A DNA stretch of 50,316 bases. It comes from a virus (Duplodnaviria > Caudoviricetes). The notes beneath the pieces were generated by a model. It was not told the origin of the DNA. It saw nothing but the letters and a program-made list of their open reading frames with translations, and made no database searches. The position numbers and the translations under genes were made by a program. The DNA is taken from positions 1-50,316 of the IMG/VR virus record IMGVR_UViG_3300032246_001342; one strand, 5' to 3'. How positions within the stretch are numbered: position 1 is the stretch's first letter; each line of letters begins with the position of its first letter. Shown piece by piece: positions 5,888-19,600 of the stretch.

Positions 5888-5890
5888 GGA

Positions 5891-7378
5891 TTACGCTCCC
5901 GCGCCGCCGCCGCTTCCGCCTTGGTAGCCTTGCAACGGGTCACCCACACGGGCGAGTGATCGTTGGGTTTCGATTGCGGCGTCCTCTTCGGCTTGGACCT
6001 CTTCGAGCCACGCTTCCATGTCGCGTTCAGGCGCGCCGATCAACCGGTCGAGGCCCGCGACTTGCGATTTGTGGAAATATTTCTCGCGCCAAAGCGACGC
6101 GACCGCCGACATGATCTTCGCCCGGTCTTCCTTGTCCGCCGCTTTGAGCGTGACGGTCGGCGTCAATCGCTCGGCGATTTCGTCGCCCCAATTGAGCGCG
6201 ATAAGTTGCGCCACAACGTCACGGGTGAGCATTTCTTCGATGTGACCGGTCAACCATTCGGCCTTGCGGCTGAGGGTGTCTTGTCCACCTTCGGAATCGG
6301 CCTTCGACCCGTGCTTCGCCTCCATGTTCGCGCGGGCGTTGCCGAGTATCGCGAGGAATAATTCGCGATTGAATGCGTCGATGGTTTCGACGAACGCTTC
6401 GCCGTTGCCGGACGATTGGATCGGTTCGACTTTCGACCCGCCTTTGAGGGCAATCGCCGAACCCGCTTGGAACGACACAAGCGCGGTGAGCATAGCTTGT
6501 TCGCGCGTGATTTTTTTGGTCGATCCGTCGGAATTGTAAAGAGGGCGACCGTTCGAATCTTTAAGTTCGATGAGGTCGTCGTCGCCTTCCGGCGTGTATC
6601 CGATGAGCGACGGCGTCGAAAACTGTTGGAGGTACTTCAACCATCGCGGATACGTTTGGAGTTTGAACCACCAAGCGTTGTAAGCCGACCGAATTTGGGA
6701 TCGACCACGCGGGTCGCCCGCCGTGACTCCAAACGCGAGGATCGCGAATTTTTCCCGTTCGATCACGAGCGACGGATCGACGTACCCTTGCGGTGACGAT
6801 TGACCGGGAAGGCGCGCCATGAAGCCTTGGACGTTTCCCCAATCGTCCACAACAAACGAATAATTCTTCCGCGCAAGCGGCCTGATGCCCTTCAAATGAA
6901 GCCGGAGGCCGTATTTGCGGGTGATCCGCATTTCATAGATTTTCTCGGCAACACACGCGCCATAAACAAAGGCGTTGAGCATTTCGGTCAACACTTCGGT
7001 CAATGGTCGGGCGAGTTTTTTGAGGTTGTACGAAACGAAATCGGTCAATTCACGGGCGAGCGCATAATCCGGGTCTTCCTCGTTTGTCACCGCCGTTTCG
7101 ACACGGACGCCGTTCATGAGGACGATTTCGGTCAATGTTTGAACCGCCGTGAAAATCGCCGGGTCCTTCATCATCCGGTCGTAAACCGCGTCGCCTTGCT
7201 CGCGTTGAAGGTCGTCGGAATATTGCGGAAGCGAAACGATGACTTGCGACAGGCCAATGTCGAGGCCGGACGCGACATATTCCCGCGACGGGTCCATCGA
7301 CGGAATTCGCGAAACCAATTCGTCGCGACGTTGTTCCATCGCGCCCGGCAGGGTCGCTGTGTCGGTCGCTTGTGCCAT
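5891..7378 (-). CDS. Portal protein (Mu gp29/DUF935-like)
   Basis: MLNAFVYGACVAEKIY, DPRGRSQIRSAYNAWWFK, ELFLAILG motifs; start taken at MAQATDT. Confidence 0.85.
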   Translation of the reverse strand: MAQATDTATLPGAMEQRRDELVSRIPSMDPSREYVASGLDIGLSQVIVSLPQYSDDLQREQGDAVYDRMMKDPAIFTAVQTLTEIVLMNGVRVETAVTNEEDPDYALARELTDFVSYNLKKLARPLTEVLTEMLNAFVYGACVAEKIYEMRITRKYGLRLHLKGIRPLARKNYSFVVDDWGNVQGFMARLPGQSSPQGYVDPSLVIEREKFAILAFGVTAGDPRGRSQIRSAYNAWWFKLQTYPRWLKYLQQFSTPSLIGYTPEGDDDLIELKDSNGRPLYNSDGSTKKITREQAMLTALVSFQAGSAIALKGGSKVEPIQSSGNGEAFVETIDAFNRELFLAILGNARANMEAKHGSKADSEGGQDTLSRKAEWLTGHIEEMLTRDVVAQLIALNWGDEIAERLTPTVTLKAADKEDRAKIMSAVASLWREKYFHKSQVAGLDRLIGAPERDMEAWLEEVQAEEDAAIETQRSLARVGDPLQGYQGGSGGGAGA

Positions 7379-7700
7379 ATCCTCGATAATACTCCCGGAG
7401 GTAGAGTTCCGATCATGAAACGAGCGCGCCGGAAAACATCCATGTCGGTCGCAACGGGTCGAAAACGACGCCTCCATTTCATCGTGCTCGGCGAACGGTT
7501 CACCATCGACGTTCACGAGCGGGTCGAAATGATCGACCTCACGACACGGAAGCGGATCGACCCGCAACGTTGGCACATGGGAAACGGCAACGTCCGAACG
7601 CCGCTTGGATGCACTCCACGGTATTTCGAATTGCGCGACGACACGCGCGAGCGGGTCCGCTCATATTCCGGCGTCACAAAAGCCGAACCGCGTTGATCGC

Positions 7701-8303
7701 TCAAAATTCGAACGGTTGTTGCCAATGGGCATGGTGAACCGCGCGCGCTCCCCACGGTAAATGTTTGAGGAACCGCACGAACCCGGAGCCGTCCACCGAA
7801 TCACAACCGACGTCGCTCGCGTATTGGATGCGCCGCCGACTGTTCACCCTTCCCATGTGAACCCATTTGTCGCGTCGCTTGGCTTCGGCGATGATCGACC
7901 GGGCAACCGATCCCATTTTGAACGCCGTCGTTCCGCCCACAAACACGGCGTCGCATTCGTCCCACGGGATCGCCTCGACCGTTGCGCCGTCTTGGACGAC
8001 AAACGCCGCCGGGAGGCCATGTGAGCGAATCACGGGCAACCACAAGGGCCAAAAGGCGAGCGTCGCGGCATGGTTGCCGACAACGTCCGGCGCGGTGATG
8101 AACCGAACCGGACGACCGGCGAGGCGTTTGAGGTAACGCCGGAACCTTCGTTCGTCGAACGTCCCGAAACAACCATTGTCGGCGGCTTCGTCGAGGCCAC
8201 CAACGTCGGCGGAAAAATGGCGCGGCGTGTGAAGGACGCCAACCGAATATAGGCGGGCGACCTCCACGACGTCGGCGTTGTATCGGGACACGAAAAGGAT
8301 CAT
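7701..8303 (-). CDS. Divergent TGT/DpdA-fold transglycosylase-like protein (second paralogue)
   Basis: Ordered motifs ADNGCF, PDVVGN, VQDG, FVGG, VHMGRV, DSVDGS parallel DSGAF, LDVVGD, FQRG, AVGG, HLLG, SCDS of 20299..21120. Confidence 0.65.
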   Translation of the reverse strand: MILFVSRYNADVVEVARLYSVGVLHTPRHFSADVGGLDEAADNGCFGTFDERRFRRYLKRLAGRPVRFITAPDVVGNHAATLAFWPLWLPVIRSHGLPAAFVVQDGATVEAIPWDECDAVFVGGTTAFKMGSVARSIIAEAKRRDKWVHMGRVNSRRRIQYASDVGCDSVDGSGFVRFLKHLPWGARAVHHAHWQQPFEF

Positions 8304-8758
8304 TCCGACGCGATTTTCACGAATTCCGCCATGAGCCGTTCTTGTTCCAACATGTTCACGACCCGTTCGACGACTTCGCCTTCCATGACCACGAACACAC
8401 CATTGAGCGGCTTCCCGTCGGCGGTTTTGAGGACGACCGACATTTGCCCGGCTCCGGCTTCGCGCGCCGATTCGATCAACATCCCGACGGCACCTTCAAC
8501 CCGTCCCGGTTGCGATGGCGACATTTCCGAACCGTGTTGTTCAACGAGTTCGAGCAAATCCGCCGCGAGGTGTTCGTTGTCTTTGGCAACCGATGCGGCG
8601 TATGCAACGAGCGCGACGCGGGCGTGTGGGTCGTATGGGCGGAGGACGAACGCCGGGCTTTCAATGACCTCGCCGACCGTCCCGTCGTCGTTGCGTCGAT
8701 GGATGACGTATTTCGAAACCAAACCGCGCGGGTCCGGCGTGTATGTGGGTTTGCTCAT
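8300..8758 (-). CDS. Hypothetical protein
   Basis: 152 aa, ATGA-coupled to neighbours; KYVIHR...FVLRPYDPHARVALVAYA is a recurrent phage motif. Confidence 0.7.
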   Translation of the reverse strand: MSKPTYTPDPRGLVSKYVIHRRNDDGTVGEVIESPAFVLRPYDPHARVALVAYAASVAKDNEHLAADLLELVEQHGSEMSPSQPGRVEGAVGMLIESAREAGAGQMSVVLKTADGKPLNGVFVVMEGEVVERVVNMLEQERLMAEFVKIASE

Positions 8759-8964
8759 GGTGTGTTGTTCCTTACGATCCGGCGCAAATGCGCGCGGAAT
8801 TTGACGTCCGACCGATGATCGGATGGTGTGAGCGGCGACGTGATCGTGTGGACCGCGCCGCCGACGTTGATTTCGAACACGGCGGATTTCGCGTACCGCA
8901 CGAGCCGAGGCGCGAGGCCCATCGACTTCATGAGGTCCATCCGTTCGCGAACGATTTTGGTCAT
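8755..8964 (-). CDS. Small hypothetical protein, HicA-like pattern
   Basis: 69 aa with TPSDHRS motif; ATGA overlaps on both sides. Confidence 0.5.
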   Translation of the reverse strand: MTKIVRERMDLMKSMGLAPRLVRYAKSAVFEINVGGAVHTITSPLTPSDHRSDVKFRAHLRRIVRNNTP

Positions 8965-9167
8965 GTCGCTTCCTTGCGCGCGGCCTCGATCACGGCGTTG
9001 ATCCGCGCCCGCAAATCGGCGTCGAACACGAACACGAGCGAACACGGCGTCCCGTCCGGGAGGTCGATATTTGCGGCGTGGACGCGGCAACCGGGCGCGG
9101 CGGCGCGGAGGATGTTCGCGGCGGTCACGATGCAACCCGCCACGATTTGTTGGTCTTGTTCGCTCAT
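8961..9167 (-). CDS. Hypothetical protein
   Basis: 68 aa, ATGA overlaps on both sides. Confidence 0.6.
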   Translation of the reverse strand: MSEQDQQIVAGCIVTAANILRAAAPGCRVHAANIDLPDGTPCSLVFVFDADLRARINAVIEAARKEAT

Positions 9168-9478
9168 CGTCGGATCACCAATTTGATTTCGAATTGGTCA
9201 CGGACCATTCGATTCGCTGATATTGTGCGATTGAACGGGCCTTGCGACAATTCAATCCGGGCTGGAATCAATTCGAACGTCGCTTCCGGTCGAGCACCCG
9301 GTCGAACGTTGCAATTCATCGCCTTCAACACCGGATCGGCGATGAAGACCGTCGCATCGGGTCCGCAAGCGATCATCACGCCTTGGATCGAAGCGAGTTC
9401 GCGATTTGCTTTTCGCAATTGAGCGTTTTCGCGCCGCAACGCGCCGATCATGCGTTTTTGGGTTTTGGTTTGGCTCAT
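9164..9478 (-). CDS. Hypothetical protein
   Basis: Start MSQTKTQ overlaps the ASCH stop (ATGA). Confidence 0.6.
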   Translation of the reverse strand: MSQTKTQKRMIGALRRENAQLRKANRELASIQGVMIACGPDATVFIADPVLKAMNCNVRPGARPEATFELIPARIELSQGPFNRTISANRMVRDQFEIKLVIRR

Positions 9479-10023
9479 GATCGCGCGGCCCTCCGACACA
9501 TGAGCGGGTCGCATCCGGGATGACACACGAGGCCCGACAATTCGCAAAGGTCGATGATGGCTTGCAATCGGACGGCGCGCTCGACCGGTTGTTCCAACGT
9601 CCAAAAACCTTGGTGTCCCATGCATGGGATCGGTTTGAGTCGAACAACGTCGCCGAGTTTCCATGCGAACCGTCCGGGTCCGTGGTTACCGAGCATGTAT
9701 TCTTCCCATGCGCGGCGGTCCGTGATGGTCGGATCGTCGGCGTTTGGCCCATACAACGCCTCGGTCGGAAGACATTCGACGAACCGCCCGACGGCAACGA
9801 GCGCGCCGAGCGGCGGTTGGCTTTCATATCCGAGGTCGATCCCGTGGCCTTTGAGTTCGTCGGCGAATCGCCGTTCGGCACGTTGCCACCGGCGCGACGC
9901 ATGGATCGCGACAAATTGCCCGGCGTACGCCTTCGGGAACCGCCATGATCGCGTCTCGTACGTCTTCGACCCGGCGGCGATGGCGGACGCCCACGGTTGC
10001 CAAAGCGAAATGGCTCTAAGCAT
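9475..10023 (-). CDS. ASCH (PUA-fold) domain protein
   Basis: AISLWQPWASAIAAGSKTYETRSW, VAIHAS, GRFAWKL, GHQGFW. Confidence 0.9.
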   Translation of the reverse strand: MLRAISLWQPWASAIAAGSKTYETRSWRFPKAYAGQFVAIHASRRWQRAERRFADELKGHGIDLGYESQPPLGALVAVGRFVECLPTEALYGPNADDPTITDRRAWEEYMLGNHGPGRFAWKLGDVVRLKPIPCMGHQGFWTLEQPVERAVRLQAIIDLCELSGLVCHPGCDPLMCRRAARS

Positions 10024-10405
10024 CGCCGCCCTTCGGTCGTTGGGACAACCCGCGCCATCCGCTCGCGTCGATTTCCCGCGTGAGTGCGTCGAGCGTTTCC
10101 ATCGCAAGACGACGACGACCGAATTCGTTCCGATCCATCATGCGGGACGCGCCGTTCATCGACCAAACACGGTCGTTGTACACGAACGCATTCACTTCGT
10201 CAATGGTTTTCCCGTCCTTGCCGTCGAGGACGCATACGCGGGCGAACGCGGCGTCGAGGCCGACCGTTGTGTAAACGATCCGCCATTCGAGGCGGACCCA
10301 TGAGAAGCGAGGATGAACCGCCGATCCTTTGACGTCCGTCGGCCCTTCCGGGCTGGCGTAGTTAGGGAGCGGTTCGAGGTTCGTGAGTTTGGTTACTTGC
10401 TCCAT
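10016..10405 (-). CDS. Hypothetical protein, first gene of the ASCH/TGT-like operon
   Basis: ATG 9 nt after the TACAAT box; overlaps the ASCH start. Confidence 0.65.
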   Translation of the reverse strand: MEQVTKLTNLEPLPNYASPEGPTDVKGSAVHPRFSWVRLEWRIVYTTVGLDAAFARVCVLDGKDGKTIDEVNAFVYNDRVWSMNGASRMMDRNEFGRRRLAMETLDALTREIDASGWRGLSQRPKGGDA

Positions 10406-10443
10406 ATCGGGCACATTGTACACGGGTTCGGACCACAAGGCAA
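10406..10443 (-). promoter_or_regulatory. Sigma70-type promoter with partial operator palindrome
   Basis: TTGCCT-17-TACAAT; GTGTACAATGTgccc at 10409..10423. Confidence 0.75.
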
Positions 10444-10464
10444 CTTCAACAAATCGCCCGCATC

Positions 10465-10508
10465 GTTTACGGTAGGCTTACCGTAAGAACGCCGATTTTT
10501 ACGGTAAG
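10465..10508. repeat. 32-bp palindromic element plus 5' extension, intergenic copy A
   Basis: gtttacggtagg-CTTACCGTAAG-aacgccgatt-TTTACGGTAAG. Confidence 0.85.
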
Positions 10509-10512
10509 CGCA

Positions 10513-12366
10513 TCAATCGACCCGCCGATCCCGTGGTCCGCTTTGGTTGGTCACGGCGACGCCGGAACCGTGGAAATTCACCGATCCGACGGGCGACGCC
10601 GATTGTGGCGCGCCATCGCCGCCCGCGACCACATCGAACGTCGTCACTTTCGCTTCGGTCAACATGAGCGATTCGGCAAAGTCCGGCGACGAGACGCCGC
10701 GCGATTTGAGTTCCTTTTTCGATTCGATTCGGACCTTGCCCGTTTCGGTTTCGAAATGTTGGACGACCGACAATTGAGCGATCAATTCGGCGTGGTTCGG
10801 GATGCTGATCATTTCGTCGGTTGGGTGTTGAATGCCCATTTCGACGTATTCGTACGCCTTCTCGAACCGCCGCCGGAGCTTCCACCATAGTTCGGCTTTG
10901 AGGTTCGAAAATTTGTCCTTTGCTTGCTTGCCGTCGTCCCAACGGTCCGTGGTCGGCGGGTTGCCAACGTTGACGCCTTTCACGTTGACACGGATCGGTC
11001 GGTCGGCGGATTGTGTCGCGCCCTTGATGCCCGAACCGTAACCGCCCGCCGAGTCATAAACGAACTCGGTCGCGCCGTGTTGTTCGAGTAGGTTGATGGC
11101 TTTCCATGCCGTCCGGGTCGTGTTGCCTTTGGTCCAATGGTAAACGGCGACCACGAACGGGCCTTGGCGGATCGTGAGGACGTTTTTCGAACCTCCTTCG
11201 TCGGCGACGTCGAGCGCGCCGCGAATCGAACCTCGTTTCGGAATCCGAAGTTCGACCGCCGCCCGAACCCATGCCGCCGGGATCGTGATGCCTTCTTGCG
11301 AGGCCGAATAGTCGATGTCTACTTCTTGGGCAAGGATCACCGGGTCGTGTTCGTATTTCCGGCGCATGGCCTCATACCACGGGTATTCGAGCACCGAACC
11401 TTCGGCATATTCGGGAACCGCCGCGCCGTGGCCCTCGGCGAAGACCGTCCCGTCGGGATTGCGAAGGACCCAACGATTTTTGCGCGGGTCGTCCTTCCAA
11501 CGGAACGTGAACACCGAAAACGCGCCCGAAAATCGCTTCTTGTAAAACACGTTCCCGATCCCGTTCGGCGTCGAGACGTAGATTTTGACGTCGGACGTAA
11601 GCGACAACGCGGCTTCGACCTTTTGAGGCCGCGCGATGAACGCCGCCTCGTCGATGACGTAAATCGACGCGCGACCGCCGCGACCGATGTTGTCGCCCGC
11701 TTCGCCCGTGATCGTGCTCCCGATTTCCGGGTTGATCAATTTCAAATAAGCGTAATGGAGTTTCGGTTTCAACCCGCGCGGGAGCATCCATTCGGGAATC
11801 ATGCGAAGAGCAAGGCGCAATTTTTCGAAAATGCTGTCCGGGTCGCCGGTTTTATCGACGAGGTCCTCTTTGCGTGATCCGACCGCGCCTTTGAATCCGG
11901 GCATGAACAACCAATGGTGAAGGAGGAACATCGCGGTGAGCCACGTCGCGCCAGCGTCGCGCGATTTTTCGACGACGCCGTCCTCTTTGCCTTGTTCACG
12001 GGCCTCAAACCATTTGATGAATTCGCGTTGTTGGCTCCACATCACGAGAGGCACGAACGGTTGCGTGATGCGCGGGTCGTACGTCCAAGCGTACGTGTCG
12101 AACCAATACGTGACGTCGTTCCGGCAACGCTCGCGCTCGTCGTGTTTGAGCGCGTCCGATGCTTCAACCCGTTCGAGGTGTTCGAGGCGTCGGCGCATTT
12201 CCGCCGCGATGGTTTCGTCGCGTGTCCGCTCCAATGCGTCGCGAATGAGTTTGATCGAACCGGACATGCCGAGCGGCGTCGCCATCCGGTCGCGCATCCG
12301 TTGATGGACGGGCGAACGCGATTGGTGTCGCTTGATCCGCTCTTTAGCTTTGGCTTTCAGACTCAT
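10513..12366 (-). CDS. terL: Terminase large subunit
   Basis: Walker A-like EKSRDAGAT, Walker B YVIDEAA, STPNG, nuclease ALDVADEG and SPDFAESL. Confidence 0.93.
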   Translation of the reverse strand: MSLKAKAKERIKRHQSRSPVHQRMRDRMATPLGMSGSIKLIRDALERTRDETIAAEMRRRLEHLERVEASDALKHDERERCRNDVTYWFDTYAWTYDPRITQPFVPLVMWSQQREFIKWFEAREQGKEDGVVEKSRDAGATWLTAMFLLHHWLFMPGFKGAVGSRKEDLVDKTGDPDSIFEKLRLALRMIPEWMLPRGLKPKLHYAYLKLINPEIGSTITGEAGDNIGRGGRASIYVIDEAAFIARPQKVEAALSLTSDVKIYVSTPNGIGNVFYKKRFSGAFSVFTFRWKDDPRKNRWVLRNPDGTVFAEGHGAAVPEYAEGSVLEYPWYEAMRRKYEHDPVILAQEVDIDYSASQEGITIPAAWVRAAVELRIPKRGSIRGALDVADEGGSKNVLTIRQGPFVVAVYHWTKGNTTRTAWKAINLLEQHGATEFVYDSAGGYGSGIKGATQSADRPIRVNVKGVNVGNPPTTDRWDDGKQAKDKFSNLKAELWWKLRRRFEKAYEYVEMGIQHPTDEMISIPNHAELIAQLSVVQHFETETGKVRIESKKELKSRGVSSPDFAESLMLTEAKVTTFDVVAGGDGAPQSASPVGSVNFHGSGVAVTNQSGPRDRRVD

Positions 12367-12979
12367 TCAACAACCCGATCAATTCGTCCACACCAAGGGC
12401 GGACGCCTCGGCCTCGCTTCCCCATTGTGCCAGCCATGCCGCCGTGCGGACGTATCCGGCGAGTTTCGTGGGCGGCAACGTGTGTTGTCCGGGTTCTTGT
12501 TGCGGGTTGGTTCGTTGCAATTCCTTTTGGGCGACTTGAAGCATTCGGAGCGCGACGTTTTGGACGGCGACCGAGATTTGCCGTTGGCGGTCGAGGTGTG
12601 CTTCGACCTTTTCTTTGTGGGCGGATTCACGGAGCCGCCGCGAATTGAGTTCGAGGAATGCGTCGTATTTCTCCGCTCGATCTTTCCAATCGAACCGCCG
12701 ATACCATTCCCACCATGACGACGCACATCGCCGATGCTCCGGGACGACCCGCCGGTGCTCCCTTTCGTAGCTTCGCCAAACCTTGTCCATCTTGCGCGAA
12801 GGTCCGGCGTCACGAAACACGCAAAAGGCTTCGTAGGCTCGGGACGACTCACCGGGAACCCGATCCCAAGGATGGAGCGAATCGGTCGGGTCTTCGATTT
12901 GATCATGGTCACGGCGTGGCATGGGTGCTCTGATTTTGCTCCATATTCGAGCGAAAGTTTGCTCCGAAGGTTGCCTCAT
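12344..12979 (-). CDS. Putative terminase small subunit
   Basis: Overlaps terL start; WDRVPGESSRAYEAF...WKDRAEKYD pattern common in genes upstream of terL; start could alternatively be 12922. Confidence 0.65.
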   Translation of the reverse strand: MRQPSEQTFARIWSKIRAPMPRRDHDQIEDPTDSLHPWDRVPGESSRAYEAFCVFRDAGPSRKMDKVWRSYEREHRRVVPEHRRCASSWWEWYRRFDWKDRAEKYDAFLELNSRRLRESAHKEKVEAHLDRQRQISVAVQNVALRMLQVAQKELQRTNPQQEPGQHTLPPTKLAGYVRTAAWLAQWGSEAEASALGVDELIGLLNESESQS

Positions 12980-13009
12980 GCTCGAAGACCGTGTACAATG
13001 TACATTGTA
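12971..13009 (+). promoter_or_regulatory. Sigma70-type promoter/operator with overlapping opposite-strand -10
   Basis: TTGCCT(12971)-17-TACAAT(12994); GTGTACAATGTACAT; 12994..13009 TACAATGTACATTGTA is a perfect palindrome. Confidence 0.75.
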
Positions 13010-13030
13010 ATCGACGGAGCAAGCACGGAC

Positions 13031-13879
13031 ATGACCACTTTTGGAATCGAAATCGAAATCGTAAACGACGGCAACGTCACCCAATCCCAAATCGCCGCCG
13101 CCATCACCGCGAACGGCGTTCAATGCAACGTGGAGAACTACACCCACAACACGCCGCGCAACTGGAAGGTCGTCACCGACGCATCATGTGGGTTCGAGGT
13201 CGTCTCGCCGGTTCTCGACCCGCGCAACGGCGACGGTTGTTGGACCGAAATCATGGCGGTTTGCAACGCGCTCAACGCGCTCGGTGTGAAGGTCAACAAG
13301 AATTGCGGCCTCCACGTTCATTTGCACGTCGCAAACATGAACCCGCGCAACGTCGCCGCGTTCGTTGCCAAATACGTTCGAAACGAGCATTTCATCGACC
13401 TCGCGATGCCGAAATCGCGCCGATTGTCGAACAATCGGTTTTGCCGATCCAACCTTGGTTATTCGGTCGCGACCGATCCGACGGCGTACATGGCGCAAGT
13501 GAACGAATGCCTCGCCCGCCTTCGAACGGTCCGAACGTTCGATGATCTGCGCCGCCAAACCCACAACGGACAAGACCGATACGTCAAGGTGAACATGATG
13601 GCGTTCAGCCGACAAGGGACCATCGAAATCCGCCAATCCGCCGGAACGACCAACGCCGAGAAAATTTGCATGTGGGTCCGATTCCTTCAATCCATGCTCA
13701 GGGAAGCGAACCAATCGGCATACTTCCGATCCATGACGCATTACCTGTTGACCGCCGACCGCGCTTGGGGTTCTTTGTGGCGGCTCGACGACCGACCGGC
13801 GACCATGTGGTTCCTCAAGCGAATGAGGAAATTCATGACCCTCGAAGGGATCGACGCCGAGGACGCCGTGATCGCGTAA
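13031..13879 (+). CDS. Putative amidoligase (COOH-NH2 ligase, glutamine-synthetase-like fold)
   Basis: TFGIEIE, WKVVTDAS, FEVVSPVL, VNKNCGLHVH, RYVKVN, GTIEIRQSAGT. Confidence 0.9.
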   Translation: MTTFGIEIEIVNDGNVTQSQIAAAITANGVQCNVENYTHNTPRNWKVVTDASCGFEVVSPVLDPRNGDGCWTEIMAVCNALNALGVKVNKNCGLHVHLHVANMNPRNVAAFVAKYVRNEHFIDLAMPKSRRLSNNRFCRSNLGYSVATDPTAYMAQVNECLARLRTVRTFDDLRRQTHNGQDRYVKVNMMAFSRQGTIEIRQSAGTTNAEKICMWVRFLQSMLREANQSAYFRSMTHYLLTADRAWGSLWRLDDRPATMWFLKRMRKFMTLEGIDAEDAVIA

Positions 13880-13903
13880 GCGGTCCGGCTCCGTTGATTG
13901 CCC

Positions 13904-13936
13904 AAAACGCCCGGTTTTTGCCGGGCGTTTTTGTTT
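13904..13936 (+). terminator. Intrinsic terminator
   Basis: AAAACGCCCGG-tttttg-CCGGGCGTTTT with T-rich tail. Confidence 0.8.
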
Positions 13937-13944
13937 GTGGTTCA

Positions 13945-13982
13945 TGCACAATGAACACGAGGCCGTGTACAATGTGCCCGTC
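13945..13982 (+). promoter_or_regulatory. Promoter with partial operator palindrome
   Basis: GTGTACAATGTgccc at 13965..13979, ATG 9 nt after TACAAT; -35 weak. Confidence 0.6.
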
Positions 13983-14102
13983 ATGGGAGCAAGCCAAACA
14001 CAACCCAAACCATCGTCATTCGCCTTCCGGCTCAAGATCGACCGCAAGGGAGAGGAAACGTTGCGCCGTGAACGACGACGCGATTCCGGGAGCCGCTGGT
14101 AA
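13983..14102 (+). CDS. Small ORF (39 aa, MGASQTQPK...), absent from the ORF track
   Basis: Starts at the conserved promoter-ATG spacing; its TAA overlaps the next ATG (TAATG). Confidence 0.45.
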   Translation: MGASQTQPKPSSFAFRLKIDRKGEETLRRERRRDSGSRW

Positions 14103-14530
14103 TGAAGGCCCACAAATGCGGTTTTTGCGGATCGACGTCGGTCGTGTCGATGTGCCTCGAATGCGAGAAAACCAACGTCGTTGGCGCGACGCCGTTCAAC
14201 GGATGGCCCTCGTTTGGGTCGTGGGCGTTCATATCCCGCCTCGACGACGCGGCGACGTCTTCCGAATGGGCGGAGGCCGCGCGGACGGTGTGGGCGCGTC
14301 ACAACCTCAACACGCGGCAAACGCGCAAAGCGTCCACGGATGCGCGCGCGGCACTTGCGACCATGATCCGCGACGACATGGACAACGAACGTCCGCTCGA
14401 CGGCCTCGCCGCCGACATATTCGACCATGAGGTCGCCCGAATGGATTTCGACGGCCTCGCCGACGCATTACTCGGCTTGCATGTTGCCGAATACCGACCA
14501 ATCAACCCGAACATAAGGATCGACCAATGA
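14102..14530 (+). CDS. Hypothetical protein with N-terminal Zn-ribbon (CxxC...CxxC)
   Basis: CGFC...CLEC; coupled to neighbours. Confidence 0.65.
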   Translation: MKAHKCGFCGSTSVVSMCLECEKTNVVGATPFNGWPSFGSWAFISRLDDAATSSEWAEAARTVWARHNLNTRQTRKASTDARAALATMIRDDMDNERPLDGLAADIFDHEVARMDFDGLADALLGLHVAEYRPINPNIRIDQ

Positions 14531-14778
14531 CACGACTCCAAACCATCGCCGAATTCATCATCGCGAACGACAAAGGCAGTTCGCAAACGACAATGGAACG
14601 GGCGGACGCGACGTTTCTCGTTTCCATCGCTCGCCAAACCGAATTGGTCCGGGACCTCCAACGCCGATTCTATGCGGGCGAAAAAACGATCCTCGGCGAA
14701 TGCAAAGCCGCCGAACGCGCCCTCGACGACATGTTGAACGGCGACCAACCGACATTGACGTTCGGAGGCGGATCATGA
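14527..14778 (+). CDS. Hypothetical protein
   Basis: ATGA overlaps on both sides. Confidence 0.65.
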   Translation: MTRLQTIAEFIIANDKGSSQTTMERADATFLVSIARQTELVRDLQRRFYAGEKTILGECKAAERALDDMLNGDQPTLTFGGGS

Positions 14779-15191
14779 ATGAACAAGGCGATTTGTTCGC
14801 GCAACCGCCAATCGTTCGCAAAAAACCCGGCGGCGTGATCGGTGAACACGCTCGGATGAACCGCCAACGCCAGATCGAAAAACGCAACGCGCGGATCGGC
14901 GAGCCGACTGGCAAATTGTCCATCGAACAACGGTTCCGGGAATTCCACGCCGAGAATCCCCAAATCTACCGGCGACTCGTCACCCTCGCGCGGGAAATGC
15001 GCCGGAAGCGGGAACATTGGGGAATTCGACCTTTGATCGAGATCGTTCGGTATGAACACGCCATGACGACCGATTCCGACGACGGGTTCAAGATCAACAA
15101 CGATTATTGCTCGCGATACGCGCGGTTGATCATGGAATCGGAACCGGGACTCGACGGGTTCTTCGAAACGCGGGAATTGAAGGCTTTATGA
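14775..15191 (+). CDS. Hypothetical phage protein
   Basis: SD GGAGG; FREFHAENP...FKINNDYCSRYARLIM...FFETR pattern. Confidence 0.7.
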   Translation: MNEQGDLFAQPPIVRKKPGGVIGEHARMNRQRQIEKRNARIGEPTGKLSIEQRFREFHAENPQIYRRLVTLAREMRRKREHWGIRPLIEIVRYEHAMTTDSDDGFKINNDYCSRYARLIMESEPGLDGFFETRELKAL

Positions 15192-15484
15192 CGGTCCTCG
15201 AAATCCGCAACGTCGCCAAAACGCGCAAGGCGTGGCGATGCGATGGATGCCACCGCCGGTTTCCCGCCGGAAGCCCGAAGGAACGGCAACGGATCGTCGG
15301 CGACGACGGACCGTATTCCATCCAATGGTGTCCGACGTGCCAAGGCATTTCGGACGGGCTTTTCGCTCTTGGCGCAGAGCGTGACAATTGGCACGAGGAT
15401 GTCCTCGAATCCATGCAATCCGAATTCGGAACATGGGAATCGGCAGACGCCAAATTTGGGACGGTGACGCCATCAAACGAGTGA
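15188..15484 (+). CDS. Small Zn-finger protein
   Basis: KTRKAWRCDGC...WCPTC. Confidence 0.65.
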   Translation: MTVLEIRNVAKTRKAWRCDGCHRRFPAGSPKERQRIVGDDGPYSIQWCPTCQGISDGLFALGAERDNWHEDVLESMQSEFGTWESADAKFGTVTPSNE

Positions 15485-15486
15485 TC

Positions 15487-15693
15487 ATGATCAAAACGCC
15501 CGAACGAACGTTGGCGGTTCATCCGGGCGATGATTTCGATTGCTTTTTCGGAACGTGGTCATATAACGACCTCGAACGGTTGATCGCTTCCGGCTCCGTC
15601 CGCGTGTCGAACGAAACGACGTGGTTCGAACCATCGCTCGGCGACCCTTTGCCATACCATCGCGACCACAAACGCGCGCATTCCAAACCATGA
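15487..15693 (+). CDS. Hypothetical protein
   Basis: Fills the operon gap; start uncertain (15481 GTG or 15487 ATG). Confidence 0.5.
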   Translation: MIKTPERTLAVHPGDDFDCFFGTWSYNDLERLIASGSVRVSNETTWFEPSLGDPLPYHRDHKRAHSKP

Positions 15694-15707
15694 AGAAACA
15701 ACCACGT

Positions 15708-15746
15708 TTGACAAAACCAACCCGAACGGTGTACAATGTACACGAT
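15708..15746 (+). promoter_or_regulatory. Sigma70-type promoter with perfect operator palindrome
   Basis: TTGACA-18-TACAAT; GTGTACAATGTACAC at 15729..15743. Confidence 0.8.
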
Positions 15747-16475
15747 ATGGGAGCAAGCCAATCCAAAACCGGCGGGATCGTCCGCGCGACCACGTACCGG
15801 ATCACCGACAACAAAAGCAAACGCGGCCTCTATTTCGCGTACGGATCGAACCTTTGCCTTTCGCAAATGCTCGGTCACCGATGCCCGAAGGCGCAACCGC
15901 TGTTCAAAGCGCGGCTCAACAATTGGCGGCTCGCGTTTCGCGGATGCGCCGACGTGGAACGCGCGCCGGGCGAATCCGTGACGGGCGGCGTGTTCGAAAT
16001 CACGCCGGAATGTGAAGCGGCCCTCGACCGATACGAGGGATACCCGAACCTCTACACCAAAGCAACGGCGAAAATCAAACTCGCCGACGGGACGCCGCGA
16101 ACGATGATGTTCTATGTCATGACGCGCCAAGCGTACGAATCGGGTCCGAACGAATCGTATTTCGACACGATCCTCAAAGGTTACGCCGACTTCCAAATGT
16201 CGGACGCCGAATTCGACGCATTGCTCGCCGCCGCCGAACGCGCCGATTCATCGGAACAACGGTTTCGATTGGAAAATCCCCACATGGTCCGCAACAAGCG
16301 CGGTCGATATGAATCGCGTCCGTTCCTGACGGCGCGCGACCTCCAACGCGAAACCGTGAGGCCGTACACCGACAATCAACTCGAATTGTTCCTCACCGAG
16401 CACGGGATCGAACCGCGCGATTTCGAGGACGATCAATACCTTTCCGACCTTATTGGAACACTCGCCGATGAATAA
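15747..16475 (+). CDS. Gamma-glutamylcyclotransferase (AIG2/GGCT-like)
   Basis: YFAYGSNL, WRLAFRGCADV, VTGGVFEI, LDRYEGYP. Confidence 0.9.
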   Translation: MGASQSKTGGIVRATTYRITDNKSKRGLYFAYGSNLCLSQMLGHRCPKAQPLFKARLNNWRLAFRGCADVERAPGESVTGGVFEITPECEAALDRYEGYPNLYTKATAKIKLADGTPRTMMFYVMTRQAYESGPNESYFDTILKGYADFQMSDAEFDALLAAAERADSSEQRFRLENPHMVRNKRGRYESRPFLTARDLQRETVRPYTDNQLELFLTEHGIEPRDFEDDQYLSDLIGTLADE

Positions 16476-16662
16476 TAACTCGAACCTCCGCCGCATCATG
16501 CGGGATCACCGATTGCGACGGCAGGACGTCGCCACGCTTACGGGTCGGTCGTTGAACGCCGTCGCGTCGTGGCTCCGGTCGCCGACGACGTCGGGATTCC
16601 GCAACATGCCCAAACACGCCCTCGAATTGCTGGAATCCAAAATCAAAGGAGGAACGGCATGA
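16468..16662 (+). CDS. Small XRE-type helix-turn-helix protein
   Basis: LRRIMRDHRLRRQDVATLTGRSLNAVASWL. Confidence 0.75.
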   Translation: MNNNSNLRRIMRDHRLRRQDVATLTGRSLNAVASWLRSPTTSGFRNMPKHALELLESKIKGGTA

Positions 16663-16862
16663 TCGGATCGACGATTTTGGTCCAACACCACGACGGGCGC
16701 ATCCTTTGCGGTCATTTCAACGACCGCGCCGTCCGCACGTCGCCACCATTGGACGACCGATATGTTGAACGGTTCCGACCGCTTGACGGGTTGGATTTGG
16801 ACAAATATCCGTTCCGGTCGGTCCTTTCCGACATTCGCCGACGGGAGGACAACGCCACATGA
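16659..16862 (+). CDS. Hypothetical protein
   Basis: SD AGGAGG, ATGA overlap. Confidence 0.6.
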   Translation: MIGSTILVQHHDGRILCGHFNDRAVRTSPPLDDRYVERFRPLDGLDLDKYPFRSVLSDIRRREDNAT

Positions 16863-17083
16863 TCACAGGCGAAGCCGTCGCCGAGTCGATCCGCCGGTTG
16901 CGGGATGAAACGTATCGGCTCACATGCGAGCAAGGCGTCGAAATCCATTTGCCGGACAATGCGTTCGACCAATTGGCCTTGTACGCCCGCGAATTCGGCG
17001 TCCATGTCACCGGGCGCGATGATCCTCGAATGACCTTCGAGGGTGTCGCCGTGTGGCGCAAGGGATCGTACGGTTTACGATAG
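16859..17083 (+). CDS. Hypothetical protein
   Basis: SD GGAGG, ATGA overlap. Confidence 0.6.
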   Translation: MITGEAVAESIRRLRDETYRLTCEQGVEIHLPDNAFDQLALYAREFGVHVTGRDDPRMTFEGVAVWRKGSYGLR

Positions 17084-17116
17084 GCTTACCGTAAGAAATC
17101 CCGATCTTACGGTAAG
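17073..17116. repeat. 32-bp palindromic element plus 5' extension, intergenic copy B
   Basis: gtttacgatagg-CTTACCGTAAG-aaatcccgat-CTTACGGTAAG. Confidence 0.85.
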
Positions 17117-17124
17117 CCGGGAGG

Positions 17125-17159
17125 TTGCCTTTCGATTGGCGACCATGTACAATGTACAC
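17125..17159 (+). promoter_or_regulatory. Sigma70-type promoter with near-perfect operator palindrome
   Basis: TTGCCT-17-TACAAT; ATGTACAATGTACAC immediately followed by ATG at 17160. Confidence 0.8.
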
Positions 17160-17348
17160 ATGCAACGAATCGCGACGTTTGAAATCATCAACACCAAGCC
17201 GGGCAAGGAATCGTTTTACGAGCGGTTCACCATCCGATACGACACGATGTTTCCGCCGCTTTCCGTTGCCCGATCCGAAGCCGAACGGATCATGTGCAAC
17301 ACCGGGCGACGGTTTACCAAAACCATGATCGTTCGCGTGTGTGAATGA
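17160..17348 (+). CDS. Hypothetical protein (probably leaderless)
   Basis: ATG 6 nt after the -10 box. Confidence 0.55.
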   Translation: MQRIATFEIINTKPGKESFYERFTIRYDTMFPPLSVARSEAERIMCNTGRRFTKTMIVRVCE

Positions 17349-17674
17349 ATTCGGCGCAAGGAAGACCAACCATGAATGGAATCAAACCAACCACCGCCAA
17401 GCGCGGATTTTTCGCCAACCTCGTCGCCCTCGTCGAACGACGCCGGTATCTCGACTCCGTCCGCGAATTGCGGCAGAACGTCCGGCCCGGCGACCGGGTG
17501 ACGTACATTTCCGAAGACGGTCGCCAATGCGACGGGATGATCCTCGATGCCCGGTATTACGGAAGCGGATCGGTTGAAGGAATGTTCCTTGCCGATGATT
17601 CGAGCACAATGGGTTGGAAACCATCGTCGTCGTTTTTGCCGATCCGTGATATGATCAACGCAACCGCGCGATAA
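17345..17674 (+). CDS. Hypothetical protein
   Basis: ATGA overlap; alternative start 17372. Confidence 0.6.
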   Translation: MNSAQGRPTMNGIKPTTAKRGFFANLVALVERRRYLDSVRELRQNVRPGDRVTYISEDGRQCDGMILDARYYGSGSVEGMFLADDSSTMGWKPSSSFLPIRDMINATAR

Positions 17675-19585: not shown

Positions 19586-19600
19586 GGTTGATTGTTAGGT

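What the first reader, a model, noticed from the sequence alone, without database searches (positions are those of the whole stretch)
10808..11833. Extreme avoidance of CAG/CTG
Seen: by manual count 10808..11833 (over 1 kb) has no CAG or CTG and 31201..31920 has three. At ~60% GC mononucleotide composition predicts about 36 per kb. Gln appears as CAA and Leu as CTC/TTG/CTT, the reverse of normal GC-rich usage, while GATC, TCGA and GAATTC are common. The bias looks genome-wide but I counted only samples. Inference: selection against a host defence recognising CWG-containing sites (for example CCWGG, GCWGC, CAG-containing type I/III) that deazaguanine does not shield, with GA-containing sites tolerated because they are modified (preQ0 at GA motifs is known for coliphage CAjan). 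The k-mer spectrum may therefore be a negative print of DpdA specificity.
Basis: partly seen in the sequence, partly recalled or inferred. Interest (0 to 1): 0.7.

Follow-up and report, generated by a model that had tools for sequence, protein, structure and literature searches.

The report
Phage genome purged of CAG/CTG
A 50-kb phage genome has lost about nine tenths of its CAG/CTG triplets, and every copy of some twenty restriction-type palindromes, by silent recoding, which looks like an unusually thorough escape from DNA-cutting defences and does not trace what its guanine-modifying enzyme can protect.

Summary
There are 0 CAG/CTG in 10808-11833 and 199 in 50,316 bp, against about 1,783 expected from base composition and 631 from dinucleotides. 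The depletion occurs in all three codon phases, in intergenic DNA, on both strands and in all 16 flanking contexts, so it is not a codon-usage effect.

It is one layer of a wider purge:
- TAG/CTA is at about 0.08 of expectation, and CTAG has 1 site.
- CCWGG has 1 site and GCWGC has 0.
- About 20 six-base palindromes have zero sites where 5-89 are expected, while 19 others sit at normal levels.

Much of the background is host-like: low TA, no CTAG, high CG and many of the missing palindromes. Genomes from the phylum of an Armatimonadota MAG share it, and endolysin, terminase and capsid homologues point to that phylum as the host. Those genomes keep CAG/CTG at 0.59-0.91 of expectation and use CAG and CTG as ordinary codons. 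The 0.11 in the phage is therefore phage-specific.

A complete preQ0/DpdA module is present. The "negative print of DpdA" idea is not supported: GA-containing palindromes are removed as fully as the others.

Best reading: DNA-level selection against a defence that reads CWG/YAG. The agent is unknown. Mutation bias and CRISPR PAM (protospacer-adjacent motif) erosion are not excluded.

The parts
1..50316 (.). Whole phage genome (61 crude gene calls, 95% coding). CAG/CTG is depleted to 0.11 of mononucleotide expectation throughout, at 0-11 sites per kb.
10808..11833 (-). It lies inside the large terminase gene (10513-12366, minus strand). The exact gap is 10805-11834.
31201..31920 (+). It lies inside a Mu Gam-like ORF (31227-31937).
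17735..18601 (-). GTP cyclohydrolase I (FolE). The domain covers residues 107-286 of the longest ORF, so the true start is probably near 18400.
   Evidence: PF01227, E 2.3e-66
18399..19226 (-). QueE-like radical-SAM 7-carboxy-7-deazaguanine synthase.
   Evidence: TIGR04322, E 4.2e-28, below the curated cut-off
19130..19585 (-). QueD (6-pyruvoyl-tetrahydropterin synthase family).
   Evidence: PF01242, E 1.2e-33
19601..20344 (-). QueC.
   Evidence: PF06508, E 1.9e-54
20299..21120 (-). DpdA-like DNA guanine transglycosylase. It is the 273-aa form, equal to residues 53-325 of the longest ORF 20299-21276.
   Evidence: phrog_887, E 1.9e-22; invariant D-S-G-A-F; pLDDT 95.9; Foldseek: archaeosine TGT, TGT, DpdA 7ui4, E about 1e-4. 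No Pfam, NCBIfam or PDB sequence hit.
21117..21689 (-). ParB N-terminal-domain protein immediately upstream of DpdA, in a DpdB-like position.
   Evidence: PF02195; phrog_723, E 8e-40. DpdB is described as ParB-like in PMC10164549 (passages).
37237..37644 (-). Local exception: an ORF (phrog_240 'head protein') with 9 CAG/CTG in 408 nt, o/e 0.62. The flanks are at 0.05-0.10. Probably a recent acquisition that has not yet been purged.
118..3880 (-). Head-gene block (endonuclease VII-like ORF, major capsid, a 372-aa ORF with a weak 'major tail protein' hit, protease-like ORF) with about twice the genome-average CAG/CTG: 32 sites at 7.7-12.1 per kb. In-frame CAG is 5 of 15 Gln codons in the capsid gene.
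23249..23893 (-). M15 peptidase endolysin, used as a host clue. It is 69% identical to a protein named 'MAG: M15 family metallopeptidase [Fimbriimonas sp.]'.

Best explanation
The CAG/CTG deficit is produced by purifying selection acting on the DNA sequence of this phage lineage, not on its proteins or codons. It is the shortest-word layer of an extreme defence-site avoidance.

Shown:
- The phage has removed CWG (and TAG/CTA) by synonymous choices inside codons and by choosing which codons sit next to each other.
- It has at the same time removed every copy of about 20 six-base palindromes, as well as CCWGG, GCWGC, RGCGCY, YGGCCR and GCCN5GGC.
- Genomes of the presumed host phylum share the palindrome, TA and CTAG part of the pattern, but not the CAG/CTG part.

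Inferred:
- Something in the infection cycle reads CWG/YAG on double-stranded DNA and penalises each copy a little. The most likely candidate is a host nuclease or nickase with a very short or relaxed recognition word.
- Selection of that kind, acting over about 1,600 independently removable sites, has driven the word to about a tenth of its expected frequency.

The deazaguanine module is a second, parallel anti-restriction device. I find no sign that it explains which words are kept.
For: 1. Frame independence (47 genes, 44.5 kb).
- Every codon phase is depleted to 0.04-0.19 of the position-specific expectation.
- Against a null that keeps the protein sequence and the codon usage, xCA|Gxx is 34 observed against 188 expected, and xxC|TGx is 7 against 147.
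- Intergenic density, 9 in 2,373 nt, equals genic density.

2. Context-dependent codon choice.
- GCA is used for 24% of Ala before A but for 1% before G.
- NCT codons are used at 3% before G.
- NNC codons are used at 4-10% before T.

3. The avoided word is the 3-mer itself.
- All 16 xCAGy contexts are at 0.00-0.28.
- 4-mers containing CAG are close to their 3-mer-based expectation.
- Every CWG can be removed synonymously in any phase. This follows from the genetic code.

4. The same genome shows textbook, all-or-none site avoidance.
- 19 of the 42 six-base palindromes with a second-order Markov expectation of at least 5 have zero sites. Examples: CGGCCG 0 observed/88 expected, CGATCG 0/87, CCGCGG 0/60.
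- Only 4 of 855 non-palindromic 6-mers with an expectation of at least 20 have zero sites.
- 19 other palindromes are at normal levels.

5. It is not host mimicry.
- Chromosomal samples of 40-60 kb from five genomes of the phylum of G004 have CAG/CTG at 0.59-0.91.
- These five were picked post hoc from 30 rpoB loci for a window-like dinucleotide signature (low TA, high CG); most were also at the low end for CAG, so the comparison, if anything, leans towards a small gap.
- Their rpoB genes use CAG 21-36 times against CAA 8-22 times, and CTG for 21-41 Leu codons.

6. Relatives differ.
- Phage-like contigs in that phylum's genomes with the same head module (capsid 45-53% identical) have CAG/CTG at 1.12-1.47. 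One of them matches its own genome: G158 contig C5 at 1.12, chromosome at 1.16.
- None of the 143 related loci of at least 4 kb is below 0.21. That set contains some duplicates between collections.

7. The nearest fetchable relative, L001, shares the trait.
- Its terminase is 69% identical and it has the same amidoligase-GGCT-QueD synteny.
- Its CAG/CTG is at 0.21.
- It lacks a different set of palindromes: GGCC at 0.00, and TTCGAA, ACCGGT and GACGTC absent. That is what shifting restriction pressure would produce.

8. Exceptions fit a balance of forces.
- One ORF (37237-37644) still has a host-like CWG density.
- The head genes keep about twice as many sites as the genome average.
- Both fit a purge that takes time and is opposed by translational preference.
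Against: - No enzyme or defence with a bare CWG or YAG specificity is known to me (recalled), and I found none in print.
- The host is inferred, not known. The oligonucleotide-signature correlation with the candidate phylum (4-mer r 0.62-0.77) is matched by some alphaproteobacterial loci.
- Part of the AG/CT deficit is host-like: rho is 0.70-0.85 in those genomes against 0.40 here.
- AG/CT is also avoided at codon junctions outside CWG. GGA and CGA are used at 7% before G; CTC and CTT across a junction are at 0.22-0.23. The selected word may therefore be broader than CWG.
- Selection and a context-specific mutation bias predict the same equilibrium composition. My only direct look at substitutions is tiny: a 1.9-kb overlap with a 96.6% identical contig, with 40 of 60 differences listed.
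- In-frame Leu CTC and CTT are used freely, 648 of 1,035 Leu codons. That is odd if CT as such were harmful.
Confidence: 0.5

Rival explanations
1. Context-specific mutation bias in this phage lineage. An example would be hypermutable C in CTR / G in YAG, caused by a methyltransferase, a deaminase, or errors of the DpdA base-exchange reaction. The bias erodes CWG/YAG without any selection on the word.
For: - CAA/TTG, the transition products of CAG/CTG, are enriched at 1.74.
- The deficit is spread evenly over genes, phases and intergenic DNA.
- The CWG-rich ORF 37237-37644 fits slow amelioration of a newcomer as well as it fits selection.
- Differences from the near relative in run X2 are dominated by transitions: C>T 20 and G>A 14 of 60.
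Against: - The other transition products, TAG/CTA, are even rarer, at 0.08.
- CAA/TTG is equally enriched in host-like genomes that keep CAG (1.36-1.80).
- No methyltransferase or deaminase was found among 51 ORFs scanned against Pfam, PHROGs and/or NCBIfam.
- The same genome shows all-or-none loss of particular palindromes, which mutation bias cannot produce.
- Among the listed differences only 1 of the 7 window CWG sites in the overlap is changed, and the relative gains 3. That is not what a 10-fold hypermutable word would show, but the sample is very small.
Confidence: 0.15
2. The k-mer spectrum is a negative print of DpdA specificity: words whose G cannot be replaced by deazaguanine (CWG) are purged, and words whose G is modified (GA-containing) are tolerated.
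For: - A complete preQ0 pathway and a DpdA-like gene are present.
- The four-base words TCGA, GATC and GANTC are abundant. GATC is at 1.71 here against 0.43-0.65 in host-like genomes.
- L001, the one relative with the trait, also carries part of the pathway.
- In CAjan, palindromes with GA or GGC are slightly less depleted: 0.86 against 0.67.
Against: - GA-containing six-base palindromes are eliminated as fully as the others: 6 of 14 at zero against 13 of 28, with obs/exp 0.47 against 0.51. With GA or GGC the ratio is 0.32 against 0.71 without.
- ATCGAT (0 sites) and TTCGAA (35 sites) have the same G context.
- No sub-word predicts tolerance.
- CAGA is not spared.
- CAjan, whose motif is known, shows no AG/CT or CWG deficit (AG rho 0.93).
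- Relatives with strong GAG/CTC or AG/CT deficits gave no QueC or DpdA match. This is one record, 88% complete, and the DpdA profile's control also rang nowhere, so it is a weak negative.
Confidence: 0.1
3. CRISPR escape ratchet. CTR/YAG is the PAM (protospacer-adjacent motif) of the host's CRISPR-Cas system, and repeated escape by PAM mutation has eroded the motif on both strands.
For: - A 3-nt word is depleted on both strands, in every context and phase.
- Different relatives lack different 3-mers: GAG/CTC at 0.09-0.17 in L029, L035, L032 and L034. PAMs differ in that way between systems (recalled).
Against: - No spacer was found. None of the 15 short DNA matches fetched from genomes of the candidate phylum lies in a repeat array.
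- By its abstract (search listing), the published survey PMC4246573 tests for PAM depletion in phages; that it found only limited depletion is my recollection, as I did not read the results.
- PAM erosion does not explain the missing palindromes.
Confidence: 0.08
4. Plain host mimicry. The real host, not among the genomes sampled, has the same CAG/CTG deficit, and the phage merely tracks it.
For: - Much of the odd background does track host-like genomes: TA 0.41-0.65, CTAG 0.00-0.19, CG 1.13-1.54, GGGG 0.13-0.75, TCGA 1.3-2.1.
- The palindromes missing from the window are avoided there too: obs/exp 0.32-0.42 against 0.63-0.79 for the tolerated set. Controls from other phyla show 0.78-0.85 against 0.64-0.87.
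Against: - CAG/CTG is 0.55-1.33 in the 30 rpoB loci sampled across the candidate phylum (0.88 and 1.04 in two loci of an unrelated MAG) and 0.59-0.91 in the five larger samples.
- CAG and CTG are ordinary or preferred codons there.
- Head-module relatives match their own genome at about 1.1.
- A survey of more than 15,000 bacterial genomes names TpA as the most depleted dinucleotide (PMC11282364, passages), whereas AG/CT here is at 0.40.
Confidence: 0.07

Closest known systems
Restriction-site (palindrome) avoidance in phage genomes. The classic literature is recalled and was not read here; plasmid and phage avoidance papers appeared in the listing.
   Same: Short palindromic words are missing far beyond composition-corrected expectation. 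They are removed by synonymous change, differ between related phages, and are partly shared with the host clade.
   Different: The degree and the word length differ. About 20 six-base sites are at exactly zero, and a 3-base word (CWG) is driven to about 0.1 in all contexts. I found no description of trinucleotide-level avoidance in a phage.
7-deazaguanine (dPreQ0) phages CAjan and iggy (Queuovirinae)
   Same: The FolE/QueD/QueE/QueC set plus a DpdA-type transglycosylase is encoded together.
   Different: - The DpdA here belongs to a family of about 275 aa with no Pfam or PDB sequence hit, and at most 26% identity to annotated phage TGT genes.
- A ParB-like gene sits next to it.
- CAjan has no AG/CT or CWG deficit.
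- Neither the modified base nor its motif is known for this phage.
CpG depletion in vertebrate-infecting viruses (recalled as an analogy only)
   Same: A very short word is kept rare genome-wide through synonymous choices because a host factor reads it.
   Different: No reader is known here.
Very-short-motif nicking or cutting enzymes of chlorella viruses, such as those with CCD or RAG specificity (recalled)
   Same: They show that 3-base DNA recognition by a nuclease exists in nature.
   Different: They are eukaryotic-virus enzymes protected by cognate methylation. None is known for CWG or YAG, and no homologue was looked for or found here.

Membership tests
Restriction-site avoidance | Short palindromic words under-represented relative to a composition-corrected (Markov) expectation. 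| tested here: met
   - 19 of 42 six-base palindromes with a second-order expectation of at least 5 have 0 sites, against 4 of 855 non-palindromic 6-mers with an expectation of at least 20.
- CWG is at 0.26-0.37 of the first-order expectation.
Restriction-site avoidance | Avoidance is independent of codon usage and reading frame. | tested here: met
   All three phases, codon junctions tested against synonymous and codon-order shuffles, and intergenic DNA.
Restriction-site avoidance | The avoided words are recognition sites of enzymes carried by the host. | tested here: inconclusive
   - The host is unknown.
- Genomes of the candidate phylum avoid many of the same palindromes.
- No enzyme list was available, and nothing is known that reads bare CWG.
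7-deazaguanine DNA modification (DpdA system) | The preQ0 synthesis genes FolE, QueD, QueE and QueC. | tested here: met
   PF01227, PF01242 and PF06508 above their cut-offs. QueE matches TIGR04322 at E 4.2e-28, below the curated cut-off.
7-deazaguanine DNA modification (DpdA system) | A TGT-fold transglycosylase (DpdA). | tested here: met
   - phrog_887, E 1.9e-22.
- AF2 model at pLDDT 95.9.
- Foldseek best hits include archaeosine TGT, bacterial TGT and DpdA 7ui4, at E 2e-4 to 5e-4 and TM 0.43-0.62. Unrelated TIM barrels score similarly.
- Invariant DSGAF in the family alignment. Its likeness to the TGT DSGGFQ motif is recalled.
- No Pfam or PDB sequence hit.
7-deazaguanine DNA modification (DpdA system) | A deazaguanine base actually present in virion DNA, at a defined motif. 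| not testable with these tools
   Only assembled contigs of public runs were available, with no raw native reads.
Host-mimicking oligonucleotide usage | The phage word frequencies equal those of the host genome, including the word in question. | tested here: not met
   - The background is similar: 3-mer r 0.73-0.77.
- CAG/CTG is 0.11 here against 0.59-0.91 in the sampled genomes.
- Host identity is inferred only.
CRISPR PAM depletion | The depleted word is the PAM flanking protospacers of host spacers. | tested here: inconclusive
   None of the 15 short matches in genomes of the candidate phylum lies in an array. Only window 1-20000 and 401 sampled genomes were searched.

The most novel reading that the evidence does not exclude
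CWG (with TAG/CTA, so YAG/CTR) is read directly by an undescribed DNA-targeting activity with an effective 3-base specificity. It could be a host defence nuclease or nickase in an Armatimonadota-like host. Alternatively it could be a nuclease of the phage itself that shreds host DNA while the phage genome escapes by not containing the word. Under this reading the genome is a negative image of the shortest recognition word yet seen to shape a phage, and about 90% of about 1,800 sites were removed by silent recoding.
Probability: 0.22. Interest if true: 0.8.

Novelty: new variant of a known kind. Interest (0 to 1): 0.58.

Why it matters
Word avoidance is normally discussed for 4-8-base restriction sites and is usually partial. 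This genome differs in two ways. A named set of about 20 palindromes is at exactly zero, and a 3-base word has been pushed to a tenth of expectation against the translational preference of the likely host clade.

- If a reader of CWG/YAG exists, it would be a new kind of very-short-motif defence, or a counter-defence by avoidance. The genome would point straight to its specificity.
- The case shows that carrying a deazaguanine pathway does not relieve a phage of sequence avoidance. The two strategies coexist here.
- It warns against reading a k-mer spectrum as a print of the modification enzyme.
- It gives a rare handle on phages of Armatimonadota-like hosts. The shared list of avoided palindromes links phage and host clade independently of gene homology.

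Tried and rejected
- Codon-usage-only explanation: rejected.
- A longer motif behind CWG: rejected. All 16 flanks are depleted; CCWGG and GCWGC are extra layers and hold only about 17% of the expected CWG.
- AG/CT as the sole unit: only partly. RAG is near normal in many contexts, for example CGAGG at 1.37 and GAAGG at 1.41. But AG/CT is also avoided 4-5-fold at synonymous junctions.
- RNA-level causes (toxin RNases, A-site cleavage at YAG codons): rejected, because both strands and all phases are affected.
- Primase initiation triplets. The known DnaG preferences CTG, CTA, TTA and CCC (recalled) coincide with the most depleted 3-mers. I see no benefit to the phage, and no primase or polymerase gene was found. 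Kept only as a curiosity.
- Assembly artefact: unlikely.
  - ORFs are intact and the sequence is 95% coding.
  - A terminase cluster member (P0121) sits on 2 contigs, the longest 50,316 bp, with sources JGI/IMG, Logan and ENA.
  - Relatives share the trait.
- CRISPR spacers: none of the 15 short matches is in an array.
- Near relatives.
  - No match in the phage collection at DNA level.
  - An exact-peptide scan of viral contigs found nothing.
Of the viral, metagenome and genome scans, only the viral one returned a relative above 50% identity, the 10.6-kb L001 at 69%.
- Expression: no RNA holder listed.
- Reads: only contigs were laid. One run covers 1.9 kb of the 20 kb laid; parts without cover say nothing.
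- Relatives of a virus record are not drawn by the genome search.
- tRNAs: none.
- Earlier notes of this scan: none for this genome.
- DpdA by sequence against PDB, Pfam and NCBIfam: no hit.
- The 567-aa ORF 31912-33615: no hit anywhere.
- Supplementary tables of the CAjan and iggy papers were not opened.
Full report
**What the window is**

The window is a whole record: one contig of 50,316 bp held as a virus record. My crude iterative gene caller gives 61 genes, 95% coding, 40 of them on the minus strand.

- Head and packaging genes:
  - major capsid 668-1696
  - protease-like ORF 2837-3880
  - head-morphogenesis protein 3911-5887
  - portal 5891-7576
  - large terminase 10513-12366
- Other genes:
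  - tape-measure-like protein 45273-46904
  - SF2 helicase 25668-27437
  - AAA_24 protein 28209-30002
  - holin 22736-23248
  - M15 endolysin 23249-23893

- No tRNA was found.
- On the minus strand, in order: ParB-N protein (21117-21689), DpdA-like protein (20299-21120), QueC, QueD, QueE and FolE.
- The DpdA call rests on several lines:
  - PHROG 887, E 1.9e-22
  - gene neighbourhood
  - a family of about 275-aa proteins with an invariant DSGAF
  - a confident model, pLDDT 95.9
  - Foldseek best matches that include archaeosine TGT, bacterial TGT and the DNA preQ0 insertase DpdA (E about 1e-4, TM 0.43-0.62), with unrelated TIM barrels close behind
  - against this, no Pfam, NCBIfam or PDB sequence hit

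**The observation**

- 10808-11833 has no CAG or CTG. 31201-31920 has three CAG.
- The genome has 82 CAG and 117 CTG. Mononucleotide composition predicts 858 and 925; a first-order Markov chain predicts 315 and 316.
- The density is 0-11 per kb everywhere.
- A CWG-free kilobase is what a rate of 3.96 per kb produces: the expected longest gap is about 1,338 bp and the observed longest is 1,377 bp.
- The feature is therefore the genome, not the stretch.

**Not a codon effect**

In 47 confident genes (44.5 kb) both words are depleted in every phase.

| Word | Observed, phases 1/2/3 | Expected, phases 1/2/3 |
|---|---|---|
| CAG | 36/34/36 | 269/275/240 |
| CTG | 14/46/7 | 253/243/175 |

- Shuffles that keep the proteins and the codon usage still expect 188 xCA|Gxx (34 seen) and 147 xxC|TGx (7 seen).
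- Intergenic DNA has 9 sites in 2,373 nt, the same density as genes.
- Codon choice depends on the next base:
  - GCA is 24% of Ala codons before A and 1% before G.
  - NCT codons are at 3% before G.
  - NNC codons are at 4-10% before T.
  - NNT codons are at 1-4% before A.
  - Lys AAG is at 47% before G, where an AG cannot be avoided, and at 7% before T.
- By the genetic code every CWG can be removed silently in any phase. The phage has done so for about nine sites in ten.

**What exactly is avoided**

Symmetrised dinucleotide ratios are AG/CT 0.40, TA 0.33, CG 1.66 and AA/TT 1.52.
- By 5-mer context, CAG is low in all 16 flanks (0.00-0.28) and TAG in all 16 (0.00-0.22).
- RAG is near normal in many contexts: CGAGG 1.37, GAAGG 1.41, AAAGG 1.46.
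- The strongly avoided words are therefore YAG/CTR, with a weaker (4-5-fold) avoidance of other AG/CT wherever a synonymous way out exists.
- 4-mers containing CAG are close to what their 3-mers predict, so no longer motif hides behind CWG.
- CCWGG (1 site) and GCWGC (0 sites) are removed on top of the baseline.
- GGGG/CCCC is at 0.05.

**The larger finding: all-or-none loss of restriction-type sites**

Six-base palindromes fall into two classes.

| Class | Palindromes (sites observed; /expected is the second-order Markov expectation) |
|---|---|
| Absent or nearly so | CGGCCG 0/88, CGATCG 0/87, CCGCGG 0/60, GCCGGC 0/51, GTCGAC 0/49, GGCGCC 0/42, ATCGAT 0/35, ACGCGT 1/33, TCCGGA 0/30, CCATGG 0/20, GGATCC 0/18.5, TGGCCA 0/15, CCCGGG 0/13, CACGTG 0/12, GCATGC 0/11, TGCGCA 0/10, and others |
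| At normal levels | CGCGCG 99, GCGCGC 95, TCGCGA 49, GACGTC 38, GAATTC 38, TTCGAA 35, CAATTG 27, TCATGA 27, ACCGGT 26, TGATCA 25, and others |

- 19 of the 42 palindromes with an expectation of at least 5 have no site. Only 4 of 855 non-palindromic 6-mers with an expectation of at least 20 have none, and two of those four are YGGCCR.
- Degenerate and interrupted sites are missing too: RGCGCY at 0, CYCGRG nearly so, GCCN5GGC 0/28 and GACN5GTC 1/25.
- This is the classical signature of restriction avoidance, at an unusual completeness.

**Test of the DpdA "negative print"**

- The known phage DpdA motifs are GA and GGC in CAjan, and GA in iggy (PMC7544227 and PMC10484667, passages read).
- If GA shielded sites, GA-containing sites should be kept. 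Instead ATCGAT, GTCGAC, CGATCG, GGATCC and TCCGGA have no site and GATATC has one.
- Palindromes with GA have obs/exp 0.47, against 0.51 without. With GA or GGC the ratio is 0.32, against 0.71 without.
- No sub-word of 2-4 nt separates kept palindromes from purged ones; the best accuracy is 0.69.
- ATCGAT (0 sites) and TTCGAA (35 sites) offer the same G context.
- CAGA is as rare as the other CAGN words.
- In iggy, dPreQ0 blocks EcoRV and SalI but not EcoRI. Here the first two sites are gone and EcoRI sites abound.
- CAjan itself shows AG/CT at 0.93 and no CWG deficit. It has only a mild trend, 0.86 against 0.67, for palindromes with and without its motifs.
- I conclude that the spectrum does not trace any known DpdA specificity. 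An unknown specificity cannot be excluded from sequence alone.

**Is it the host's bias?**

The host is not given. Four clues point to one phylum.

- The endolysin is 69% identical to a protein named from a Fimbriimonas MAG and 53% identical to one from an Armatimonadota MAG.
- Terminase relatives at about 52% identity carry Armatimonadota names.
- The best terminase locus among species genomes, by E-value, is on an Armatimonadota MAG contig: L195, in genome G004.
- 6 of 401 genomes drawn from G004's phylum hold a capsid homologue at 37-53% identity.

From 30 rpoB loci of that phylum I picked the five genomes whose signature looked most like the window. This was a post hoc choice, and most of them were also at the low end for CAG. 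I fetched 40-60 kb of chromosome from each.

- They share the background:
  - AA/TT 1.29-1.61
  - CG 1.13-1.54
  - TA 0.41-0.65
  - CTAG 0.00-0.19
  - CAA/TTG 1.36-1.80
  - CGA/TCG 1.24-1.68
  - GGGG 0.13-0.75
  - TCGA 1.3-2.1
- They also avoid the very palindromes that the phage lacks. Obs/exp is 0.32-0.42 for the window-avoided set against 0.63-0.79 for the tolerated set. The phylum-wide rpoB pool gives 0.57 against 0.81.
- Mixed alpha-, gammaproteobacterial and cyanobacterial loci show no such contrast: 0.85/0.87, 0.85/0.75 and 0.78/0.64.
- A good part of the strange spectrum is thus shared with the likely host clade.

CAG/CTG is not shared.

- It is 0.59-0.91 in those five genomes and 0.55-1.33 over the 30 rpoB loci of that phylum (0.88 and 1.04 in two loci of an unrelated MAG in the same table).
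- rpoB there uses CAG 21-36 times against CAA 8-22 times, and CTG is a major Leu codon.
- GCWGC, GGCGCC, TGCGCA and TGGCCA are also normal in those genomes.
- The signature correlation (4-mer r up to 0.77) is not unique to this phylum, so the host assignment stays provisional.

**Relatives**

- Among 143 related loci of at least 4 kb from viral and metagenome collections, the median AG/CT ratio is 0.93. That set contains some duplicates between collections.
- Only L001 has CAG/CTG as low as 0.21, with AG/CT at 0.30. Its terminase is 69% identical and it has the same amidoligase-GGCT-QueD synteny.
- L001 lacks a different list of sites: GGCC at 0.00, GCGC at 0.17, and TTCGAA, ACCGGT, GACGTC and ATGCAT absent.
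- Other lineages lack other 3-mers: GAG/CTC is at 0.09-0.17 in L029/L035 and in L032-L034. The 88%-complete record behind L034 gave no QueC or DpdA match, but this is a weak negative because the DpdA profile's control also rang nowhere.
- Phage-like contigs with the same head module inside genomes of the candidate phylum have CAG/CTG at 1.12-1.47. One of them matches its own chromosome closely, 1.12 against 1.16.
- Ordinary relatives therefore mirror their hosts, and this lineage does not.

**Internal exceptions**

- ORF 37237-37644 (phrog_240 head protein) has 9 CWG in 408 nt, o/e 0.62. Its flanks are at 0.05-0.10, while its CG and TA ratios are like the rest of the genome. It looks like a newcomer that has not yet been purged.
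- The head genes 118-3880 keep about twice the average density. In-frame CAG is 5 of 15 Gln codons in the capsid gene. That fits translational preference for CAG opposing the purge.

**Selection or mutation**

Composition alone cannot separate the two.

- Against mutation:
  - Half of the transition products of CWG (TAG/CTA) are the rarest words of all.
  - CAA/TTG is no more enriched than in host-like genomes that keep CAG.
  - No methyltransferase or deaminase was recognised among 51 ORFs scanned.
  - All-or-none palindrome loss shows that strong sequence selection operates in this genome.
- One public run holds a 2.5-kb contig that is 96.6% identical over window 18357-20000 and 7670-7938. 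In it, a stretch matching 7670-7938 lies about 400 bases from the stretch matching 18357-20000, so the gene order differs there.
- Among the 40 of 60 differences listed, 1 of the 7 window CWG sites is changed, and the relative has 3 extra CWG and 2 extra TAG. This does not look like ten-fold hypermutability, but the sample is far too small to settle the matter.

**Mechanism proposed**

- Shown: silent, frame-independent, genome-wide removal of CWG/YAG in a lineage that also removes restriction sites completely, and that differs in this from its likely host clade and from its ordinary relatives.
- Inferred: a reader of CWG/YAG on DNA imposes a small cost per site. With such a per-site cost each loss is favoured independently, which is the only way that about 1,600 sites can be purged gradually.
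A host nuclease or nickase with a very short or relaxed word is my first choice. A nuclease of the phage aimed at host DNA, or a CRISPR PAM, are alternatives.
- I found no description of trinucleotide-level avoidance in a phage.

**Verdict**

- The specific link to DpdA is not supported.
- Part of the spectrum is host-like.

Noticed in passing
window 21117-21689 (-) next to 20299-21120 (-): A ParB N-terminal-domain gene ends where the DpdA-like gene starts. In the bacterial Dpd system the ParB-like ATPase DpdB is required together with DpdA (PMC10164549, passages). Phage DpdAs are usually described as acting alone (recalled), so this may be a phage DpdA/DpdB-like pair.
   Followed up: partly
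window 12734-16475 (+); L001 4190-7089; L005/L006: An Amidoligase_2 gene, two small ORFs and a gamma-glutamyl cyclotransferase (AIG2-like) gene lie beside the terminase gene. The set is conserved in order in L001 and present in L005/L006, which have normal AG/CT. Function unknown; it could be a peptide-tagging or base-decorating module.
   Followed up: partly
window-wide; chromosomal samples L240-L252: About 20 six-base palindromes are at zero in the phage. Many of them (CGATCG, CGGCCG, CCGCGG, CCATGG, GTCGAC, ATCGAT, GGGCCC and others) are also nearly absent from chromosomal samples of five genomes of the candidate host phylum, but not from proteobacterial or cyanobacterial loci. A shared avoided-site list may serve as a host-prediction signal.
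   Followed up: yes
window 37237-37644 (-): A small 'head protein' (phrog_240) ORF sits among tail genes and has near-normal CAG/CTG density (9 in 408 nt). It is probably a recent import.
   Followed up: partly
L029/L035, L032-L034, L102/L103 (related phage contigs): Other phages of this terminase family lack a different, non-palindromic trinucleotide: GAG/CTC at 0.09-0.22. Some also lack CAC/GTG (0.26-0.31). Three-base purges may be a wider, unexplored phenomenon.
   Followed up: partly
window-wide: GGGG/CCCC occurs 37 times (both strands) against 726 expected, and GCAC/GTGC is at 0.28. The G-run deficit is partly shared with host-like genomes (0.13-0.75).
   Followed up: partly
window 7670-7938 and 18357-20000 versus a contig of run X2: A 96.6% identical relative in a freshwater metagenome run carries a stretch matching 7670-7938 about 400 bases from its QueE-QueC-matching stretch, so the gene order differs between close relatives.
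   Followed up: no
window 118-612 (-): A small endonuclease VII-like ORF lies beside the capsid gene. It has the second-highest CAG/CTG density of all ORFs (12.1 per kb) and the highest share of in-frame CAG (4 of 8 Gln codons).
   Followed up: no
G076 chromosomal samples (L243-L245): One genome of the candidate phylum has CCWGG almost absent (2 against 98 expected) while GCWGC is normal. This suggests an EcoRII-type system in that species.
   Followed up: no
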